This document shows positions 11,400 through 62,440 of a stretch of DNA of 64,000 nucleotides, piece by piece. How positions within the stretch are numbered: the first letter of the stretch is position 1; every line of letters starts with the position of its first letter. A program made the position numbers and the translations under genes. The notes under the pieces are model-generated. The model saw only the letters and a list, made by a program, of their open reading frames with translations. It had not been told where the DNA came from and searched no databases. The stretch is from Octopus vulgaris (taxonomy: Eukaryota): positions 45,198,001 to 45,262,000 of the forward strand of contig OX597826.1 of assembly GCA_951406725.2 (NCBI GenBank), written 5' to 3'.

Positions 11400-12450
11400 A
11401 CGAACCCTGGAGGGACAAAATCTAAGGTTGATCTAGGCGGGACTTGAACCCAGAACATGAAGAGTCGGAAGAAATACCGCAAGGCATTTTGTGAGGCGCC
11501 CTAACGATTCAGCAAGCTCGCCATCTACCGCATTATCAATATTGAAAATAAAAGTTTCAAAATTTGGCACAGATCCAGCAAGTATGGGGAAGGGGTTTAG
11601 TCCATTACATTGACCCCAGTATTTCCCAGGTACTTAATTTATCGACACCGAAAGAACGAAAGGCAAAGCCGACCTCGGCTGAATTTGAACTCAGAGCGAG
11701 AATACGGGCGAAAAACCGCTAAACATTTTCCTCGGCGTACCAACAACACTAATAATCGTTTTTACTAAAGGAACAAGGCCTGAAATTTTGTGGGGAAGAG
11801 ACTAGTCGATAACATCGACCCCATCGACTGGTCTTTAATTTATTGACCCCGATAGGAGGAAACACAAAGTCGACCTCTGCTGAATTTGAACTCTGAATGT
11901 GAATACGGGCGAAATACCGCTAAGCATTTTTGCCCAGCGCCGTAACAATGATAAAATAATGCTTTCTACGAAAGGCACAAGGCCTGCAATTTTGGGGAAA
12001 GGAACCAGTCGATTATACCGACCTCGGTGTTTCACTGGTACTTAATTTATCGACCCGGAACAGATGAAATGCAAAGTTGACCTCGTCTGTATTTGAACTC
12101 TGAACGTGAATACGGGCGAAATCCCTGCTAGGCAATTTTCCTGGCGCGACAACAACAACCAATAATGATATTAATAATCATAATAGTTTACTTGTTAAAC
12201 AGACCCCAAGAGGTACTTTATGGAACCCCAATGAACGAGAAGCAATGTTGACCTCGACGTTTTTGGACTCAGAACGTGAATACGGGCGAAATTCCTGATA
12301 GGCAATTTTCCTGGCGCGACAACAAAAACCAATAATGATATTAATAATCATAATAGTTTACTTGTTAAACAGACCCCACAAGGTACTTTATGGAACCCCA
12401 ATGAACGAGAAGCAATGTTGACCTCGACGTTTTTGGACTCAGAATGTGAA
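11400..12450 (-). repeat. Tandem array of SINE family B-derived units, including a recent 170-bp duplication
   Basis: About 6 head-to-tail units. 12101-12270 and 12271-12440 are almost identical. Confidence 0.85.
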
Positions 12451-21327: not shown

Positions 21328-21620
21328 TACGGAGATGTACTTGCATAGCAAGTGACCTGATCTGAGACCGTATGTTGGAACGAAAACAATTGCAGCGTGG
21401 AAGGTGTTTATAAACCATTTAAGAAACGCACAAAAACCGTTAGATTCACTTCAACATTTATATTTAATTTGCCATGCAGCACGGAATTTTGTCAGTGAAC
21501 AGGTCGCGGTCTCAAACCGACGAAAATATTTTGGCAAATTAAATTTAAACGTTGAAATAAATCTAACGGCTTTTGTGTGTTTCTTAAATGGCTTATAAAC
21601 ACCTTCCACGCTGCAATTGT

Positions 21621-21621
<1 letters not shown>
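21328..21621. mobile_element. Fold-back insertion in (TA)n, G3-C8 hammerhead family, copy 1
   Basis: Arms 21385-21474 and 21532-21621 are inverted, with an unpaired left extension of about 57 nt. Same termini as 56661-57096. Confidence 0.85.
21488..21538 (+). ncRNA. Minimal hammerhead ribozyme, G3-C8 core variant
   Basis: tttgtca-GTGAACA-g-gtcg...cgac-GAA-AATATT-T-tggcaaa. Confidence 0.7.
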
Positions 21622-26663: not shown

Positions 26664-27061
26664 TACTCTTTTACTTGTTTCAGTCATTTGATTGCGGCCA
26701 TGCTGGAGCACTGCTTTTTAGTCGAGCAAATCGAACCCGGGACTTATTCTTTGTAAGCCCAGTACTTATTCTATCGGTCTCTTTTGCCGAACCGCTAAGT
26801 GACGGGGACGTAAACACACCAGCATCGATTGTCAAGCAGTGCTAGGGGGACAAACACAGACACACAAACACATACACATATATATATATACATATATACG
26901 ACAGGCTTCTTTCAGTTTCCGTCTACCAAATCCACTCACAAGGCATTGGTCGGCCCGGGGCTATAGCAGAAGACACTTGCCCAAGATGCCACGCAGTGGG
27001 ACTGAACCCGGAACCATGTGGTTGGTTAGCAAGCTACTTACCACACAGCCACTCCTGCGCC
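26664..27061 (-). mobile_element. SINE family A, young full-length copy
   Basis: Nearly identical to 44856-45266. Confidence 0.92.
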
Positions 27062-27597
27062 TATATATGAGGTTATGTATTGAAATGTTTGAACTGAGAA
27101 TTGTCTTCCATATAGAATATATTTCCTATTATGTATTACTCAAGATCTGCATTGAAAGCATTAGACGCTTCCACGTTGTTATTATTTGGTTTGATTTCAC
27201 TATTATAATTTATATACATATATGTGTGTTTGTATATGTACATGTGTGTATATGTGTTTGTATGCGTGCGTGTGTTTGTGTATGCATATATGTGTGTGTG
27301 TGTTCGTGTATACGTATGCATATACAAAAATTTCTGTTTTGACATTAATACACAAACAAAAACAAAAAAAAACCAACAAAAACAATCTAACTGGATCTTC
27401 GCTCATAATGAAACAATTGCTTTACTTACGTAACGATACGGAGTCAGTATGATACTTGTAATATACTTGAAACAGAGAACTAAAACAATAATAATCAGTC
27501 TTTCACGCTTCTCTGTAAGCATAATGGCGATTATTTCCACATGTTACACATGTAGCTAGTCATAACGACTGTAAATGCACATACCAACCAACCAACC

Positions 27598-28862: not shown

Positions 28863-29475
28863 TATTTCTTTACTACCCACAAGGGGCTAAACACAGAGGG
28901 GACAAACAAGGACAGACAAACGGATTAAGTCGATTACATCGACCCCAGTGCGTAACTGGTACTTACTTTATCGGGCGAAATGCTAAGCTGTATTTCGTCT
29001 GCCGTTACGTTGTGAGTTCAAATTCCGCCGAGGTCGACTTTGCCTTTCATCCTTTCGGGGTCGATAAATTAAGCACCAGTTACGCACTGGGGTCGATGTA
29101 ATCGACTTAATACCTATGTCTGTCCTTGTTCGTCCCCTCTATGTGTCTATGTGTAGCCCCTTGTGGGTAATAAACAAAATAGGTACTTAATTTATCGACC
29201 CCCAAAAGAATGAAAGGCAAAGTCGACCTCGGCGGAATTTGAATCCAGAACGTAATGGCAGACGAAATATGGCTACGCATTTCGCCCGGCGTGCTAACGT
29301 TTCTACCAGCTCGCCGCTTGGCGAGAATGTAAAGTCCGACAAAATGCGGCTGGGCATTTCGCCCGGCGTGCTAACGTTTCTACCAGCTCGCCGCTTGTCG
29401 AGAATGTAAAGACGGACAAAATGCGGCTGGGCATTTTGTCCGGCGTACTAATGTTTCTGACAATTCACTGCCTTA
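28863..29475. mobile_element. Nested SINE family B cluster: + copy 28974-29181 inside a - copy, plus a 77-bp tandem duplication of the head
   Basis: 16-bp TSD ggtacttactttatcg (28958-28973) / ggtacttaatttatcg (29182-29197). Repeat units at 29278 and 29355. Confidence 0.85.
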
Positions 29476-44855: not shown

Positions 44856-45060
44856 TTTACTCTTTTACTTGTTTTAGTCAATTGACTGCGGCCATGCTGG
44901 AGCACCGCCTTTAGTCGAGCAACTCGACCCCGGGACTTATTCTTTGTAAGCCCAGTACTTATTCTATCGGTCTCTTTTGCCGAACCGCTAAGTTACGGGG
45001 ACGTAAACACACCAGCATCGGTTGTCAAGCAATGCTAGGGGGACAAACACAGACACACAA

Positions 45061-45100
<40 letters not shown>

Positions 45101-45266
45101 ATATATACGACAGGCTTCTTTCAGTTTCCGTCTACCAAATCCACTCACAAGGCATTGGTCGGCCCGGGGCTATAGCAGAAGACACTTGCCCAAGATGCCA
45201 CGCAGTGGGACTGAACCCGGAACCATGTGGTTGGTTAACAAGGTACTTTACCACACAGCCACTCCT
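44856..45266 (-). mobile_element. SINE family A, young copy
   Basis: Full tail and head, nearly identical to 26664-27061. Confidence 0.92.
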
Positions 45267-45589
45267 TATGTGTGTGTTTGTATCTATTATTTTGTCATGA
45301 TATAAAAAAGGTAACACTTGGATAATTGTTTGATCCAGTGCAATGCTGTTGTTAACAGTATGCATTCATTCACTTGATCTAGCAAATGAATACTCATCCT
45401 CGAAACCGACGAAGACCCATTTAATTTTTATATTTTTATATGCTTATGTGTATGCGTAACACGGGTGTACGTGTCTGTATGTATACGAATATGAATGCAT
45501 ATTCATGCGTGCATATTATTTTTTCGAGCACTTGCGTGTATGTATATATATATGCTTTGTAAGTATATATGCATGTACTATCATATATG

Positions 45590-45733: not shown

Positions 45734-45772
<39 letters not shown>

Positions 45773-45842
45773 GCAGAATGCTCAAATGAAAGAAAAATTT
45801 TAATAAAATGAGAAAATGATAAAATATATAAATATATATATT

Positions 45843-45883
45843 TATTCAACCGGTTTTCGTCAATGTATGACTTGTCAAGAATA
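45843..45883 (-). ncRNA. Minimal type I hammerhead ribozyme, U3-A8 core variant, in the Penelope 3' UTR
   Basis: Minus strand reads tattc-TTGACAA-gtca(tacat)tgac-GAA-AACCGGTT-gaata: 5-bp stem I, 4-bp stem II, palindromic stem III. One extra A relative to the ideal register. Confidence 0.7.
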
Positions 45884-46517: not shown

Positions 46518-47717
46518 TCAACGAGGAGTTTGCATATTAAGTTGTGTTTGGAATTTTTCAATAAAGAGATTCTCCTTGTTAATTCTCTCCTGTGTGGTGA
46601 TCCCGTCTTTACATTGGTAGAAGGGGAATATATAGAATTTGGGGTTTAAGTCTTTAGCACATGAGTCTAAGTGGTCACTCAGTGGAATTTGTCGGTATTC
46701 CGGGAGATTTATTTGTTCTTTATGCACCGTTACTCGTTTACGTAACGGGAGACTCGTTTGTCCCACATAATTATGTTGGCAACCAGCGCATGTGAGAACG
46801 TAGATAAGGTTCTCGGAGGAACAGGAGAAGTTAGTCTTGATTTTAAACTTCGTACCTTGTTTGAAGGTAAATTCAGAGCCTTCAAGTAGAAAGGGGCAGG
46901 TACCACAGTTTGAGCGTGCACATTTTTTTACTGTTGGGGGTGGATGTGGTGTGTGAAGTTTGGCATTTGTCAAGAGTTTTTTTAAAGATTTGTGTTGCCT
47001 TTTGCATTTGAGGATTTTGTGTGTATTTATAATGTTTTTCATTTTTGGGTCTGTTGACAGTAGACTGAGGTTTTGTATGATTGTGGTGTATGCTTCGATA
47101 TTTTTGGGGTTGTGGGTGGAAATGTATGGAAGTATTTTGAGGTTGTGTGTGGTGTTAGGTTGGGTGGTTATCAGTGTAGTGTTGTCTAGTTCTTTGGCGC
47201 GTTTTATTCCATACTCTATAAGGGTGGAGGGATATTGACGTTGTAATAGTGTTTTTTTGAGGTCTTGAAGGCGTATTTCTCGTGTTTTTGGATCCGAGAC
47301 AATGGTGCATACCCTTTTAGCTAAATTGATGGGGATATTTGTCTTGGTGTGTTTTGGGTGGCATGAACTAAAGAGGAGGTATTGTTGTGAGTCTGTAGGT
47401 TTGTGGTAGATGTCTGTTATGATTTGGTTCTTAGGTGTTTTTATAATTAGGAGATCAAGGAATGGGAGGTGATGTTTGCTAAATTCCATAGTGAATTGGA
47501 TGTTGGGATGTATGTTGTTTAGTATGGTTTTGAATTCCAGGAGTTTTTCATAAGGTTCTTTCCATATGATGAAACAATCATCTAAATACCTTTTCCAGTT
47601 TTCCATTAGGTAGGTGTGGAAAACATGTCCAAATTTCTGGCTTGATATTTCATAGAGTGACAGTTCGAAGTAACCCATTATGAGGTTCGCAAGGACTGGT
47701 GCAGCCTTGGTACCCAT
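46518..47717 (-). CDS. Penelope-like element (Neptune-type) polyprotein, 5'-truncated: RT C-terminal half + Cys-rich linker + GIY-YIG endonuclease
   Basis: 399-aa ORF with (GIA)MGTKAAPVLANL, WKRYLDDCFIIW, IQFTME..LPFLDL, TDIYHKPTDSQQYL..SCHP, linker CARSNCGTC and endonuclease FSCSSENLIYVLTCAGCQHNYVGQT..LRKRVTVH..E. The ATG is an internal Met. Homology continues upstream to about 47808 across a frameshift near 47760. Confidence 0.95.
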   Translation of the reverse strand: MGTKAAPVLANLIMGYFELSLYEISSQKFGHVFHTYLMENWKRYLDDCFIIWKEPYEKLLEFKTILNNIHPNIQFTMEFSKHHLPFLDLLIIKTPKNQIITDIYHKPTDSQQYLLFSSCHPKHTKTNIPINLAKRVCTIVSDPKTREIRLQDLKKTLLQRQYPSTLIEYGIKRAKELDNTTLITTQPNTTHNLKILPYISTHNPKNIEAYTTIIQNLSLLSTDPKMKNIINTHKILKCKRQHKSLKKLLTNAKLHTPHPPPTVKKCARSNCGTCPFLLEGSEFTFKQGTKFKIKTNFSCSSENLIYVLTCAGCQHNYVGQTSLPLRKRVTVHKEQINLPEYRQIPLSDHLDSCAKDLNPKFYIFPFYQCKDGITTQERINKENLFIEKFQTQLNMQTPR

Positions 47718-48281
47718 CGCAATGCCACATTTTTGACGGTAGTGTGTGTCGTCGAAGAGAAAAATTGTTTGTCAGAATGAACTTAAGAGATTCTGTAATA
47801 AAAGACTTATATATATATATATGTATATATGTATATATATATGTATATATATATATGTGTGTGTGTGTGTATAATATATGCGCGTGTGTGTGTTTTTGTG
47901 CATATATATATATATATATATATACATACATATATATATGTGTGTGTGTGTATAAATGCTAGTATGTTGTATGTATATATGTATGCATGTATGTATGTAT
48001 GTATGAATGCTTGTATGTTGTATGTATGTATATATGTATGCACGTATGTATGTATATATGCATATGTATATGTATGAATGGGTGCGCACGTATGCATGTA
48101 TACCTTCAATTGTGAGCATTCTAGCAACTGTGTAGTCATCCTCGAACCCGACGAAGATCCATTTAATTTTTTATCTTCATATGCTTATGTGTATGACTGC
48201 ATAATACGTGTGTATGCGTCTATACTTATACGAACATGTATGTATATTTAAGCGTGCATATTAATTTTTTCGAGTTCAAGC

Positions 48282-50465: not shown

Positions 50466-51940
50466 TTATGTATAGGTACACAAAAAGATAGATTGATATA
50501 TAGCGACATATGTGTGTGTATATATATATATATATATACACATATACATACATCCACAGATTTATATGTGTGTGTGTGTGTGTGTATGTGTGTGTGTGTG
50601 TGTGTGCACGAACATTGAAATGAAATATAAATATAAAAAAAAAATTATTTCTATTTATTTCCACTCAATTAAAAGTAAACTCTATATCAATTACGAATTA
50701 TTTTTATAGCCTTTCGTTGACTGTTGTCTTCATGTTTTTTTTATTTTTCGTATGATATACATACATACACATACACATACATACATACATATATATAATT
50801 TCACTATTATATTTCATTAGAACTTATATCATTATAGGCGAAATATCCTCTTGTGATCACACACATTATGTTGTCCGTCCATAAGAAAATTTCTTTACTT
50901 AAAACCTACATCAAGAATGAATCATTATATGTGTACATGAAAAGTTTGAACAACTATGTAATTAAGAATACCATGTTAAAATGGTTTTGTTATATATTCA
51001 TATTATTCTATATACATTTATCTATTTTATTTTAACCCTCCTTCACATTAAGTCAGTTTTATAAATGCGTTATTAAAACTAGCTTTCGATCTTATAAAGA
51101 ATTCTGCTGACGGTTTTAAAATTAACACATTTTTGTATACAACAGCATTACTTCTATGCGGCATTTATCTTCATCGTACCACTCTAAATTATTAGCTTTG
51201 TGGGTAAATATGTCGGACACATTTTGTACCGGACTAAAAATGCATTATAGTATTGCGATCGCAAATTTCTACTTTATGGATTCACATCTTTCCAAGTTCT
51301 TATTTACGTTTAATTCTCTCAAGATAGATTAAAAAGGTGTTGGTAAATATATTAGAGCCGACATCACCTATTATTCTGTTTGTATTAAAAAGGACGGCCA
51401 TTGAACGTGTAATAAATCAATGTATATTAGCATCTAAAACATATTGGTAAGATACAATTGTCCGAATGTTAGAGAAATTGTTTTACGAATTCCACTTACT
51501 AAGTTAAATTTCCTGGGGAAAAGCATTAACGATACAACATTCTATTGCTGTTCTCCTATAAATTTTACACCAACATCTTTCGTTTTCCTCGTAGGATAAT
51601 TATTTTAAATCTCTTATAAGCTTGAGAAATGAATGTCAGGACTTGCTAACGGCTTTAAAATATTTAAGTGTCTTAACTTCTACATATCAAACAAATATAC
51701 TTAGTATCATAAGCGTAGATTATATTCAAAGTAACTCTAAATCTTGGGTGAAGATTTTCTACTCAGAATGCATAAAATATTATTCTTTTTGATATTATTC
51801 CCGTTCATATTATACGGGGTCTCGGGCGTCTGTATCTGCTGTTGTATGTATACCTGGACAAGATGTTGTTCAGAAGGAGGACAGGCATGCGTGTCTCGCC
51901 TCTCTGAAATTGCTGTCAGATTGCAAAGGAAAGGAAAAGG

Positions 51941-52260
51941 AGCACTCCGTCGGTTACGACGACGAGGGTCCCAGCTGATACGATCAACGGAACAGCCTAC
52001 TCATGAAATTAACGTGCAAGTGACTAAGCAATCCACAGACACGCGTACCCCTAACGTAGTTCTCAGGGAGATTCAGTGTGACACAGAGTGTGACAAGGCC
52101 AGCCCTTTGAAATACAGGTACAACTCATTTTTGCCAGCTGAGTGGACTGGAGCAAGGTGAAATAAAGTGTCTTGCTCAAGGACACAACACGTCGCCGGGA
52201 ATCGAACTGACGACCTTACAATCGTGAGTCGAATGCCCTAACCACTAAGTCACGCGCCTT
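51941..52260 (-). mobile_element. SINE family D, full length
   Basis: Minus strand ggcgcgtgacttagtggttagggcattcgactcacga...agttcgattcccggcg, then body to gtaaccgacggagtgct. Confidence 0.85.
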
Positions 52261-56569: not shown

Positions 56570-56614
<45 letters not shown>

Positions 56615-56660
56615 TCACTTGAATCTCAATCACTTAACCGTATATATATATATATATATA

Positions 56661-57094
56661 TTACGGAGATATACTCGCATAGCAAGTGATTTGATCTGAG
56701 ATCGTGTGCTGGAACGAAAACAACTGCAGCGTGGAAGGTGTTTGTAAGCCATTTAAGAAACACACAAAAGCCGTTCGATTCACTTCAACATTTAAGTTTA
56801 ATTTGTCAAAATATTTTCGTCGCTAAAATCCGCGACCTGTTCACTGACAAAAGTCCGTGCTGCAGCACCTGTTTTACGTACCCGTAACTTAGCGGTTTGG
56901 CAAAAGAACTGATAGAAATAAGTACTAGGCATACAAAGAATAAGTTGTGCTGCAGCACGGATTTTTGTCAGTGAACAGGTCGCGGATTTTAGCGACGAAA
57001 ATATTTTGACAAATTAAACTTAAATGTTGAAGTGAATCGAACGGCTTTTGTGTGTTTCTTAAATGGCTTACAAACACCTTCCACGCTGCAATTG

Positions 57095-57096
<2 letters not shown>
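56661..57096. mobile_element. Fold-back insertion in (TA)n, G3-C8 hammerhead family, copy 2, with SINE-derived spacer
   Basis: Near-perfect 150-bp arms at 56719-56868 and 56947-57096, with an unpaired left extension of about 58 nt. The spacer is SINE tail sequence. Confidence 0.9.
56964..57013 (+). ncRNA. Minimal hammerhead ribozyme, G3-C8 variant (mirror copy 56802-56851 on minus)
   Basis: tttgtca-GTGAACA-g-gtcgc(ggatttta)gcgac-GAA-AATATT-T-tgacaaa: 7-bp stem I, 5-bp stem II, palindromic stem III. Confidence 0.78.
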
Positions 57097-57155
<59 letters not shown>

Positions 57156-57180
57156 CATGTATTCTTTTATTCATTTGCTC

Positions 57181-57294
57181 GTTTACTTGTTTCAGTCATT
57201 TAACTGTTGCCATGCTGGAGCACCACCTTTACTCGAGCACCAGCATCGGTTGTCATGCGATGTTGTGGGCACAAACACAGACACACAAACATAT

Positions 57295-57344
<50 letters not shown>

Positions 57345-57504
57345 GATTGGCTTCTTTCAGTTTCCGTCTACCAAATCCACTAACAAGTATTTGGTCGGCG
57401 CGAGGTTATACTAGAAGACATTTGCCCAAGGTTCCACGCAGTGGGACTGAACCCGGAACATTGTGGTTGGTAAGCAAGCTACTTCTCACACAGCCACTCC
57501 TGCG
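57181..57504 (-). mobile_element. SINE family A with internal tail deletion
   Basis: tttacttgtttcagtcat...cagccactcctgcg. Confidence 0.85.
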
Positions 57505-57542
57505 ACTATATATATATATATATATTCTTTTATTCTGTTATT

Positions 57543-58112
57543 CTTTTGTTTCAGTCATTTGAGTGCGGCCATGCTGGAGTACCGTCTTTAGTCGGACAAA
57601 TCGAGCCCACCACTTATTCTTTGTATGTCTAGTACTTATTTCTATCAGTTCTTGTGCCAAACCGCTAAGTTACGGGTACGTAAACACACCAACATTCAGG
57701 TGATGGTGGGGGGACAAACACACATACACATATATACACATATATAAAACAAAAGACAGAAACACAGAGACAACAAGCATGTGTATTAGTTTGACATTCG
57801 GGAAAAATGTGTTTGACGTTTCGAGCTTACGCTCTTTGACAGGAATGAGAGGGGGGGAAATGGAATGAGAGTGAGAGGAAAAAAAGAGAGAGTGAGACAG
57901 AAAACAAATGTGTCTTGATTAACGGTTTCACTCGTACGGCAGGTTTTCACTCGGTTTCCTCTCGGTTTCCATTTACGAAATTCACTAACAAAGTATTAGT
58001 CGGCCCAGAGTTAGAGTTGAAGACACTTGTCTCAGGAGCTGGAAAGTGAAATTAAACTCGAAACCAGGCGGGTGAAAATCGATTTTCTTAATCACAGAGC
58101 CATGCCTGCACC
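57543..58112 (-). mobile_element. SINE family A tail (57543-57722) and degenerate head (about 57960-58112)
   Basis: The tail is clearly homologous; the head is highly diverged. Confidence 0.65.
57745..57935 (-). mobile_element. pLTR-like fragment with CTGTC(G/A)A hammerhead-like motif (57811-57846); relative at 28527-28637
   Basis: Minus strand reads CTGTCAA-a-gagc(gtaa)gctc-GAA-ACGT-C. The 28527-28637 fragment carries gtaggctc-GAA-ACGT-A-aaagac and similar flanking sequence. Confidence 0.5.
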
Positions 58113-61604: not shown

Positions 61605-62440
61605 AGACGGTAATCTAGCAGAATTGTTATCGCATCAGGACAAAATGCTTAACAGCATTAAGTTCTGTCTTCAAATTCTGCTGCGGCTGCCTTTACTTCT
61701 AACCCTACAGAAATCGATCAACTAGAAGCAATTCAGCATTTGAGTCAATGTAATCAACTAACTCGCTCCCTTAAAATTGCTGGCCTTGTGCTAAAATTTG
61801 TATCCGTTGAGTTGGCAGAATAGTTAGCACGTCGAATATAATGCTTAGCAGCATTTCCTCCAGCTCTTTACGTTCTGAGTTCAAATCCTGCCGATGTTGA
61901 CTTTTCCTTTTATCTTTTGAGATCAATAAAATAAAGTACCAATCAGGTAGAGGTGTCGCTATAATCGAATATACCCTTACCTCTAAAACTGCTGGTCTTA
62001 TGACAAAACTGAAGGTGGCGAACTTGAAGAAATGATAAGCGCTTCGGATAAAATGCTTAGCAGTATTTTTTCTAGAATTTTGCGTTCTGATTTCAAATTT
62101 TGCCGAGGTGGACTTTGCCTTTTATCTTCTTGGGTCAGTAAAATGAAGTACTAAACAGGTACAGGTGTCGTTATAATCGAATATACCCTTATCACTAAAA
62201 CTGCTGGCTTTATGAAAAAAAACAAGGTGGCGAGCTTAAAAAATTGATAGGATCTCCGGACAAAATACTTAGCGGTATCCTTTCTAGGATTTTGCGTTTT
62301 GATTTCAAAATTTGCAGAGGTTGACTTTGCCGTTCATCCTTTTGGGGTCGATAAAATAAGTACCAATTGAGCACTGGGCTGATGTAATCCACTTACTCCC
62401 TCCTCTTAAAATTGCTGGTCTTCTGCCAATATTTGAAACC
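61605..62440 (+). repeat. Tandem array of about 4 SINE family B copies
   Basis: Heads at about 61608, 61808, 62013 and 62227. Shared ataatcgaatataccctta...aaaactgctgg in units 2 and 3. Confidence 0.8.

What the first reader, a model, noticed from the sequence alone, without database searches (positions are those of the whole stretch)
56869..57685. Hairpin spacer copied from a neighbouring SINE about 700 bp away (local template switch)
The 78-nt loop (56869-56946) is SINE A tail sequence. It shares five deviations from the other family copies (gtAcccg, ggttTgg, gaaCTgat, agaAataag, cAtacaaag) with the reverse complement of 57612-57685 only. It is bounded on both sides by the palindrome gtgctgcagcac. 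Inference: during insertion the polymerase jumped onto nearby target-locus DNA or its transcript and then back to the element, recording how inverted pLTRs form.
Basis: partly seen in the sequence, partly recalled or inferred. Interest (0 to 1): 0.7.

Follow-up and report, generated by a model that had tools for sequence, protein, structure and literature searches.

The report
Retroelement hairpin that captured neighbouring DNA
In what is likely an octopus-type genome, a hairpin-shaped remnant of a likely Penelope-type retroelement carries in its loop an inverted near-copy of DNA lying about 600 bases away, probably copied in while two loose DNA ends were being joined, which would give a natural tracer for testing how these inverted repeats form.

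Summary
A 78-nt spacer (56869-56946) separates two 150-nt inverted arms (148/150). It matches the reverse complement of 57612-57684 at 71/73 and shares 6 of 6 derived changes with that SINE copy; each of 11 other copies shares 0 or 1. New here: both junctions have 3-nt microhomology to positions private to that copy, so the donor spans about 57608-57702 with a 12-nt skip. The arms look like solo Penelope-like pseudo-LTRs: head-to-head, 5' palindrome, one-sided tail, minimal hammerhead, (TA)n target. No cognate ORF was found. A second copy (21328-21621) has the same outer ends and no spacer, so the spacer is not how the inversion forms. Best reading: two DNA ends, each ending in the palindrome, were joined after one primed on nearby flanking DNA, most likely during insertion. 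A later break at the palindrome centre fits almost as well. A single out-and-back polymerase jump is less likely. The genome-wide subfamily test could not be run. L1 shows similar local capture; I found none described for Penelope-like elements. Unexplained: the SINE lying in between lacks 90 nt covering this same segment. New variant of a known kind; interest 0.42.

The parts
56641..56661 (.). (TA)n target array, left side
   Evidence: Sequence; the exact element boundary is ambiguous by a TA or two
56662..56718 (-). One-sided 3' extension ('tail', about 57 nt) of the longer pLTR-like arm
   Evidence: Absent from the right arm; present at 21328-21384 in the second copy, 87.7%
56719..56868 (-). 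Left arm of the fold-back (pLTR-like, reading outward), ending in the 12-nt palindrome at 56857-56868
   Evidence: 148/150 complementary to the right arm; mismatches at 56724 and 56853
56802..56851 (-). Minimal type I hammerhead motif (G3-C8 core pair, one extra base before stem II, palindromic stem III)
   Evidence: Descriptor scan
56869..56946 (+). 78-nt spacer: 3 nt matching 57697-57699, one extra T, a 73-nt block matching 57612-57684 (inverted), one mismatched base
56947..57096 (+). Right arm (inverted pLTR-like, no tail), starting with the 12-nt palindrome at 56947-56958
   Evidence: ends at the same base as the second copy's right arm
56964..57013 (+). Minimal type I hammerhead motif in the right arm
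   Evidence: fold z = -3.8, 0 of 200 shuffles as stable
57097..57153 (.). (AT)n(GT)n array, right side of the target
57162..57506 (-). Intervening SINE copy lacking 90 nt (junction near 57239/57240) that cover the whole spacer-homologous block
57526..57740 (-). Donor SINE copy (3' half), an old decayed copy with 23 events over 178 aligned positions
57608..57702 (-). Inferred donor span: 3-nt microhomology at 57608-57610 and at 57700-57702, copied block 57612-57684, skipped 57685-57696
21328..21621 (.). Second copy of the same fold-back family: same outer ends, no spacer, tailed arm truncated at the centre, arms 83/90 identical

Best explanation
The loop of this likely Penelope-type fold-back is an inverted near-copy of the SINE 512-606 bases to its right, probably copied in when one of two loose DNA ends, each ending in the same 12-base palindrome, primed on that neighbour through a 3-base match and was then joined to the other end, most likely while the element was inserting. 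Steps: (1) inferred: the element's endonuclease cuts both strands of a (TA)n array and its reverse transcriptase extends both ends, one cDNA starting at the tail and one at the internal start, each running to the palindromic 5' end of the RNA. (2) inferred: normally the two self-complementary 3' ends anneal and give a head-to-head repeat with one central palindrome. (3) shown as a sequence match, inferred as a process: here one 3' end ending in CAC paired with 3 bases of the neighbour SINE and was extended by about 80 nt with a 12-nt skip. The simplest geometry is fold-back of the right end onto its own exposed strand, which always gives an inverted copy. (4) shown as a match, inferred as a process: the new end joined the other palindrome end through a second 3-nt match, so both 12-mers survive whole. 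The copying enzyme (element RT, Pol delta or Pol theta) and the template (DNA or RNA) are not determined; I favour exposed flanking DNA.
For: Donor identity: 6 of 6 derived events are shared with the neighbour, 0-1 with each of 11 others. It is the most identical of the 2 pairs at 93% or more over 50 nt or more among 295 repeat pairs in the masked window. The neighbour's event density is the same inside (8/72) and outside (15/106) the block (Fisher p = 0.65), as expected for private decay. Junctions: the hexamer CACCTG spanning the left junction also lies at 57697-57702 (inverted), 12 nt beyond the block. None of the 12 other copies has it at that position, and the chance of the 6-mer within 30 nt is about 0.004. 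The GTG at the right junction matches 57608-57610, where the 11 other copies covering that position do not have it. Two ends: both arms keep the full 12-mer, and both family copies share both outer ends. In vitro a PLE protein cuts and extends both strands and starts RT at two sites that flank the tail (PMC11167929). Timing: divergence of the arms (2/150) and of spacer versus donor (2-3/74) does not differ (p = 0.60 and 0.34). Precedent: fold-back of the reciprocal end gives inverted duplications at L1 insertions (10.1101/2024.12.14.628481).
Against: Both block mismatches are on the donor side (the spacer keeps the majority base) and one more mismatch abuts the right microhomology; a close sibling elsewhere would look the same. 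0 of 11 only bounds such a subfamily below 24% of copies, and one young pair (44869, 26675) differs at just 1 of 73 positions in this block. The first bases of the spacer have a second reading: a 7-mer across the junction (ACCTGTT) also lies in the left arm at 56835. A 3-nt match alone is weak, with 29 CAC sites in the next kilobase. The donor is far: L1 templated insertions typically come from within 15 bp (10.1101/2024.08.27.596794). Pol theta inserts are mostly up to about 30 nt (PMC11724301). The timing test has little power, and the natural 5' end of this pLTR is unknown. One event.
Confidence: 0.5

Rival explanations
1. Later repair: the element inserted as a perfect palindrome with one central 12-mer. 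A cruciform or hairpin cut later opened the centre with 12-nt overhangs, and host repair filled it with a locally templated insertion. Same donor and same junction chemistry, different time; the element's RT plays no part.
For: Neither family copy has a perfect centre: the second copy has lost the inner part of its tailed arm and keeps 2 nt past the symmetry axis. The hairpin is very stable (-196.6 kcal/mol as DNA). Long perfect palindromes are known to break and gain central asymmetry (own knowledge; my search for this returned 1 paper, not read). Local fold-back insertions occur at ordinary breaks in yeast (PMC11724301).
Against: It needs both hairpins opened 3-6 nt past the axis. Spacer-donor divergence is not lower than arm divergence, though the power is low.
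Confidence: 0.25
2. One reading: a single polymerase ran off the element, jumped to the neighbour (DNA or a local transcript), then jumped back onto its own cDNA and made the inverted arm.
For: It fits both microhomologies and the order of parts. Co-insertion of a nearby pre-mRNA was seen once for L1 (PMC10191854). Self-priming and template jumps were proposed for PLEs (PMC3846280).
Against: The return must land on the terminal CAC, 1 of 5 such sites. In the second copy the inverted arm holds sequence that the tailed arm lacks, so it cannot be a plain copy of that arm unless a later deletion occurred. No host exon was found to support an RNA template.
Confidence: 0.12
3. Not local: the spacer came from another member (DNA or RNA) of a SINE subfamily that carries these changes, or travelled with the element, and the neighbour merely belongs to that subfamily; or a captured SINE piece was later gene-converted by the neighbour.
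For: Subfamily structure exists in the window. Both mismatches are donor-side. The 95% upper bound on such a subfamily is 24%.
Against: The donor looks like an old, decayed copy with even event density. Junction microhomologies use donor-private bases outside the block. The second family copy has no spacer. A random source would rarely be the next copy along.
Confidence: 0.09
4. Assembly or library artefact (fold-back chimera).
For: Long inverted repeats between microsatellites are hard to assemble (noted for PLEs in PMC8557442). No reads were available.
Against: Arms differ at 2 sites and spacer and donor at 2-3 sites. The spacer keeps ancestral bases that the donor has lost. An independent, older copy has the same outer ends. 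Colinear sequence resumes after the arm.
Confidence: 0.04

Closest known systems
Inverted (head-to-head) pseudo-LTRs of Penelope-like elements, e.g. Adineta vaga Pen2/Pen3 (PMC3846280; passages and section 9 read)
   Same: Head-to-head pLTRs, a palindrome at the 5' junction, a tail on one arm, AT-rich targets; unrelated DNA captured between solo pLTRs was reported.
   Different: There the inverted pLTR overlaps the direct one at the junction, and in the passages read the captured non-coding DNA was not traced to a source. Here the palindrome is duplicated around a spacer whose donor is identifiable 0.5-0.6 kb away. The tail is about 57 nt rather than 30-40.
Templated insertions and inverted duplications at human L1 insertions (10.1101/2024.08.27.596794 passages; PMC10191854 section 11; 10.1101/2024.12.14.628481 section 9)
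   Same: Local genomic sequence under 250 nt is copied into a retrotransposon junction; inverted copies arise by fold-back on 2-bp homology; one case of a co-inserted nearby pre-mRNA.
   Different: Different retroelement class. L1 donors are typically within 15 bp of the site and at the element's outer junction; here the donor is 512-606 nt away and the insert sits inside the element, between two arms.
Local fold-back templated insertions at double-strand breaks (yeast Pol delta plus end joining; Pol theta-mediated end joining) (PMC11724301; abstract and Discussion read)
   Same: Microhomology-primed synthesis, release, capture of the second end, inverted product.
   Different: Those are mostly short (majority under 14 bp, up to about 150) and primed next to the break; this one is 78 nt and primed about 660 nt from the end.
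Minimal type I hammerheads of metazoan PLEs (PMC4209133; first half read)
   Same: Extra base between positions 9 and 10.1, G10.1-C11.1 pair, palindromic helix III, pairs of motifs on opposite strands 100-700 bp apart.
   Different: The core pair is G3-C8. The parts I read list C3-G8 and U3-A8 as natural; PMC11167929 tested C3G/G8C as an engineered partial rescue.

Membership tests
Penelope-like element, solo inverted pLTR | Head-to-head inverted pLTR pair | tested here: met
   Hammerhead sense reads outward in both arms
Penelope-like element, solo inverted pLTR | Palindrome at the 5' junction of the pLTR | tested here: met
   12-mer at 56857 and 56947; 8 nt of it at 21475 in the second copy
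Penelope-like element, solo inverted pLTR | Tail extension on one arm only (30-40 nt in described families) | tested here: met
   About 57 nt in both copies, longer than usual
Penelope-like element, solo inverted pLTR | Minimal hammerhead motif in the pLTR | tested here: met
   My descriptor gave 3 hits in 64 kb, all in the arms; 1 hit in 40 shuffled windows. The descriptor was written after seeing the motif. Rfam gave no hammerhead hit. Cleavage activity not tested.
Penelope-like element, solo inverted pLTR | AT-rich or microsatellite target | tested here: met
   All four outer ends of the two copies abut (TA)n
Penelope-like element, solo inverted pLTR | pLTR belongs to an element encoding RT plus GIY-YIG endonuclease | tested here: inconclusive
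   The window's RT/GIY-YIG fragment (46518-47771) has a different 3' region (best match 20 nt, E 0.24); arm translations match none of 46 full-length relatives convincingly (best E 0.025)
Penelope-like element, solo inverted pLTR | Target site duplication (optional in PLEs) | tested here: inconclusive
   Cannot be read inside (TA)n arrays
Locally templated insertion (break repair or retrotransposition junction) | Insert best matches nearby DNA | tested here: met
   Within the window only: 71/73, with 6 of 6 shared events
Locally templated insertion (break repair or retrotransposition junction) | Donor is the unique best match genome-wide | not testable with these tools
   No eukaryotic DNA collection; protein-level proxies gave no usable copies
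Locally templated insertion (break repair or retrotransposition junction) | Microhomology at the junctions | tested here: met
   3 nt at both ends; the left needs a 12-nt skip and the right has an adjacent mismatch
Pol theta-mediated end joining product | Short insert (typically up to about 30 nt) from the immediate flank | tested here: not met
   78 nt, donor 512-606 nt from the insertion edge (length norm from PMC11724301)
Pol theta-mediated end joining product | Dependence on the enzyme | not testable with these tools
   Needs genetics
TIR DNA transposon / MITE | Inverted repeats at both termini | tested here: not met
   The left terminal 57 nt have no counterpart at the right end in either copy

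The most novel reading that the evidence does not exclude
Inverted pLTRs of Penelope-like elements are built from two independent cDNAs, one from each side of a double-strand cut, that normally anneal by their palindromic ends. The telomerase-like RT itself can leave the element and copy target-locus nucleic acid hundreds of bases away. The same event also removed the homologous 90 nt from the intervening SINE. Spacers in the genome's other copies of this family would then be a readable record of the insertion intermediate.
Probability: 0.15. Interest if true: 0.72.

Novelty: new variant of a known kind. Interest (0 to 1): 0.42.

Why it matters
How Penelope-like elements make their tandem and inverted repeats is still open: the in vitro work (PMC11167929) stops at first-strand synthesis, and PMC8557442 names it as the next task. 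A spacer with an identifiable local donor works as a tracer. Its orientation, distance, microhomology and age relative to the arms separate twin-cDNA joining, self-priming and later palindrome breakage. One case cannot decide this, but the family occurs twice in 64 kb, so a genome-wide survey should find many. It also points to a route by which these elements duplicate flanking DNA, which was seen in rotifers without a traced source. As a single junk-DNA event it has no evident function.

Tried and rejected
Genome-wide subfamily test through spurious SINE translations. The donor's 46-aa frame gave no candidate among longer proteins. In the representative library it gave 3 hits, two of them chance and one a distant SINE-like protein. 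A consensus-like copy gave 1 hit, from Argonauta hians, covering the SINE head only. The test therefore stayed undone beyond the window. Rfam: only microsatellite-driven or chance matches, all below the gathering score, no hammerhead. ARAGORN: no tRNA. Host gene search: 138 ORFs scanned with Pfam, none reached a curated cut-off, so the RNA-template idea is untested. Cut-and-paste of the spacer out of the intervening SINE was rejected as the main story: that copy shares 0 of its 9 derived substitutions with the donor and lacks the junction hexamer. The old SINE head at about 57945-58112 shares only a few changes with the intervening copy's head, at a level I judge to be chance. The 31-nt island at 56611-56641 has only 8-mer matches to the arms and no significant hit. 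Linking the arms to the window's Penelope ORF or its 46 relatives failed. MITE reading rejected (asymmetric ends). No structure prediction was run; it would not bear on the question. The bacterial/archaeal, phage and plasmid collections were not searched, as they are irrelevant to an animal SINE.

Full report
Context. The window is AT-rich, full of microsatellites, and holds at least 13 copies of the 3' half of one SINE family. A translation of one copy hit a single named protein, from Argonauta hians, so the source is likely an octopod. SINEs make up 11.6% of the Octopus vulgaris assembly, which also has recently active Penelope-like families (PMC13282606, passages). I did not identify the SINE family by name.

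Observation. The spacer is 78 nt (56869-56946) between two copies of a 12-nt palindrome. The arms (56719-56868, 56947-57096) match at 148 of 150 positions. Spacer bases 5-77 match the reverse complement of 57612-57684 at 71 of 73; the next best of 11 other copies is 90.5%. Against the majority of those 11 the spacer has 6 events. The neighbour shares all 6 and has 2 more of its own. The others share 0 (9 copies) or 1 (2 copies). In 66 pairs of the 12 copies, no 73-nt window with at most 3 unshared events had more than 3 shared ones. After masking microsatellites, 2 of 295 repeat pairs reached 93% over 50 nt, and spacer/donor was the closer. The arm pair is missing from that list, which I attribute to BLAST merging both arms and the spacer into one self-inverted hit. 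The donor's events are as dense inside the block (8/72) as outside (15/106; p = 0.65), which fits private decay rather than subfamily markers. Against this: both block mismatches are donor-side, one young pair of copies differs at only 1 of 73 positions here, and 0 of 11 bounds a carrier subfamily only below 24%.

Junctions (new). The last 3 bases of the left palindrome plus the first 3 of the spacer (CACCTG) recur, inverted, at 57697-57702, 12 nt beyond the block. None of the 12 other copies has this hexamer there; it occurs 17 times in the window on both strands, giving about 0.004 for a 30-nt interval. The first 3 bases of the right palindrome match 57608-57610, again at bases private to the donor, with one mismatch between them and the block. 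The donor is thus about 57608-57702, with 57685-57696 skipped and one extra T. A rival reading of the left junction is a 7-mer also present in the left arm at 56835. A single 3-nt match is weak on its own (29 CAC sites in the next kilobase).

What the hairpin is. Each arm carries a minimal type I hammerhead reading outward, with a G3-C8 core pair, one extra base before stem II and a palindromic stem III. My descriptor, written after seeing the motif, found 3 hits in the window, all in these arms and in a second copy, against 1 hit in 40 shuffled windows. Rfam did not detect it. The extra base, the palindromic helix III and opposite-strand pairs 100-700 bp apart are described for PLE hammerheads (PMC4209133, parts 1-2 of 4). 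The left arm has a further 57 nt that the right lacks. A second copy at 21328-21621 (about 89-92% identical) has the same tail start and the same right end, both in (TA)n, but no spacer; its tailed arm is cut short at the centre and its arms match at 83 of 90. Head-to-head pLTRs with a 5' palindrome and a one-sided tail are the described PLE anatomy (PMC3846280 passages and section 9; PMC8557442 passages). The link to a coding element is not shown. The window's RT/GIY-YIG fragment at 46518-47771 (46 relatives of 729 aa or more) has a different 3' region, and arm translations do not match those relatives.

Mechanism. Shown: donor match, microhomologies, duplicated palindrome, inverted orientation, shared outer ends. 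Inferred: everything about process. The duplicated full palindrome is what two free 3' ends would leave. A single polymerase going out and back would have to return to 1 of 5 CAC sites; this is a modest argument, since proximity favours the terminal one. A PLE protein cuts and extends both strands in vitro and initiates at two sites flanking the tail (PMC11167929, parts 1-2 of 4), which would put a tailed cDNA on one side and a tailless one on the other, as seen in both copies. An inverted copy of right-flank DNA is the obligatory product of the right end folding back on its own exposed strand, as proposed for L1 reciprocal ends (10.1101/2024.12.14.628481, passages and section 9) and yeast breaks (PMC11724301, abstract and Discussion). 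An RNA template has one L1 precedent (PMC10191854, passages and section 11) but no support here: 138 ORFs (137 of 155 filtered ORFs, SINE and Penelope frames mostly left out, plus one added) gave no Pfam match at a curated cut-off. Arm divergence (2/150) and spacer-donor divergence (2-3/74) are compatible with one date (p = 0.60, 0.34), but a later break at the centre of a perfect palindrome gives the same junctions and cannot be excluded. I put capture at insertion between two ends at 0.5, later repair at 0.25, single out-and-back at 0.12, a non-local source at 0.09 and artefact at 0.04; a local donor overall is about 0.87.

Unexplained. The SINE copy between hairpin and donor (57162-57506) lacks 90 nt (reference positions 40-129) that cover the whole copied block (44-116). 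It is 1 of 13 copies with such a loss; the largest in the others is 20 nt. Rough post hoc odds are 0.014. It is not the donor's sibling (0 of 9 derived substitutions shared). It would have lain inside the exposed strand and been complementary to the new spacer, so the loss may be collateral to the same event or a later purge of an inverted repeat. This is speculation; an empty-site allele would test it.

Novelty. Inverted solo pLTRs are known. Capture of unrelated DNA between pLTRs is reported in Adineta without a traced source in the parts I read. PMC13174262 (passages) covers L1-RNA chimeras; 10.64898/2026.07.22.740005 (passages) added nothing. Searches for a PLE case with a local donor (listings and abstract starts only, apart from the papers named) found none; the library lacks most subscription papers, and I opened no supplements. 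Palindrome central asymmetry is recalled, not read (one search listed 1 paper, not opened). Verdict: a real, well-supported local capture inside a likely PLE fold-back; a new variant of known processes; valuable mainly as a pointer to a genome-wide test. Interest 0.42.

Noticed in passing
window 57162-57506: The SINE between hairpin and donor lacks 90 nt covering the whole spacer-homologous block (junction near 57239/57240, 2-nt microhomology); 1 of 13 copies; rough post hoc odds 0.014.
   Followed up: partly
window 21328-21621: Older second copy of the fold-back family: same outer ends, no spacer, tailed arm truncated at the centre, intact hammerhead in the right arm.
   Followed up: yes
window 56964-57013, 56802-56851, 21488-21538: Hammerhead core has a swapped G3-C8 pair in all three arms that carry it; in the papers read this appears only as an engineered partial rescue.
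   Followed up: partly
window 46518-47771 (-), 3' region to about 45740: 5'-truncated Penelope-like ORF, 417 codons open, RT C-terminal part plus GIY-YIG, 57-58% identical to its best relatives. A possible U3-A8 hammerhead-like motif near 45840-45880 was seen by eye only (missed; fold z -0.1). A 31-nt T run lies at 45738-45768.
   Followed up: partly
window 26666-27070 and 44860-45275: Two SINE copies of a young subfamily share several markers in head and 3' half and differ at 1 of 73 positions in the block.
   Followed up: partly
window 57785-57850 and 57945-58112: Next to the donor lie a short stretch with a hammerhead-like hairpin and GAAAC (fold z -1.3, not significant) and a very diverged SINE head that may or may not be the donor's own.
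   Followed up: partly
window 11622-12450, 29277-29458, 61832-62366: Tandem arrays with periods of 201/170, 77 and 212 nt, apparently built from another dispersed repeat family.
   Followed up: no
window 56611-56641: 31-nt island between two (TA)n runs just left of the element; only 8-mer matches to the arms, judged chance.
   Followed up: yes
window 51741-52160 (+): 139-codon open frame of ordinary composition; only a weak Pfam match (E 0.0087, below cut-off); not shown to be an exon.
   Followed up: partly
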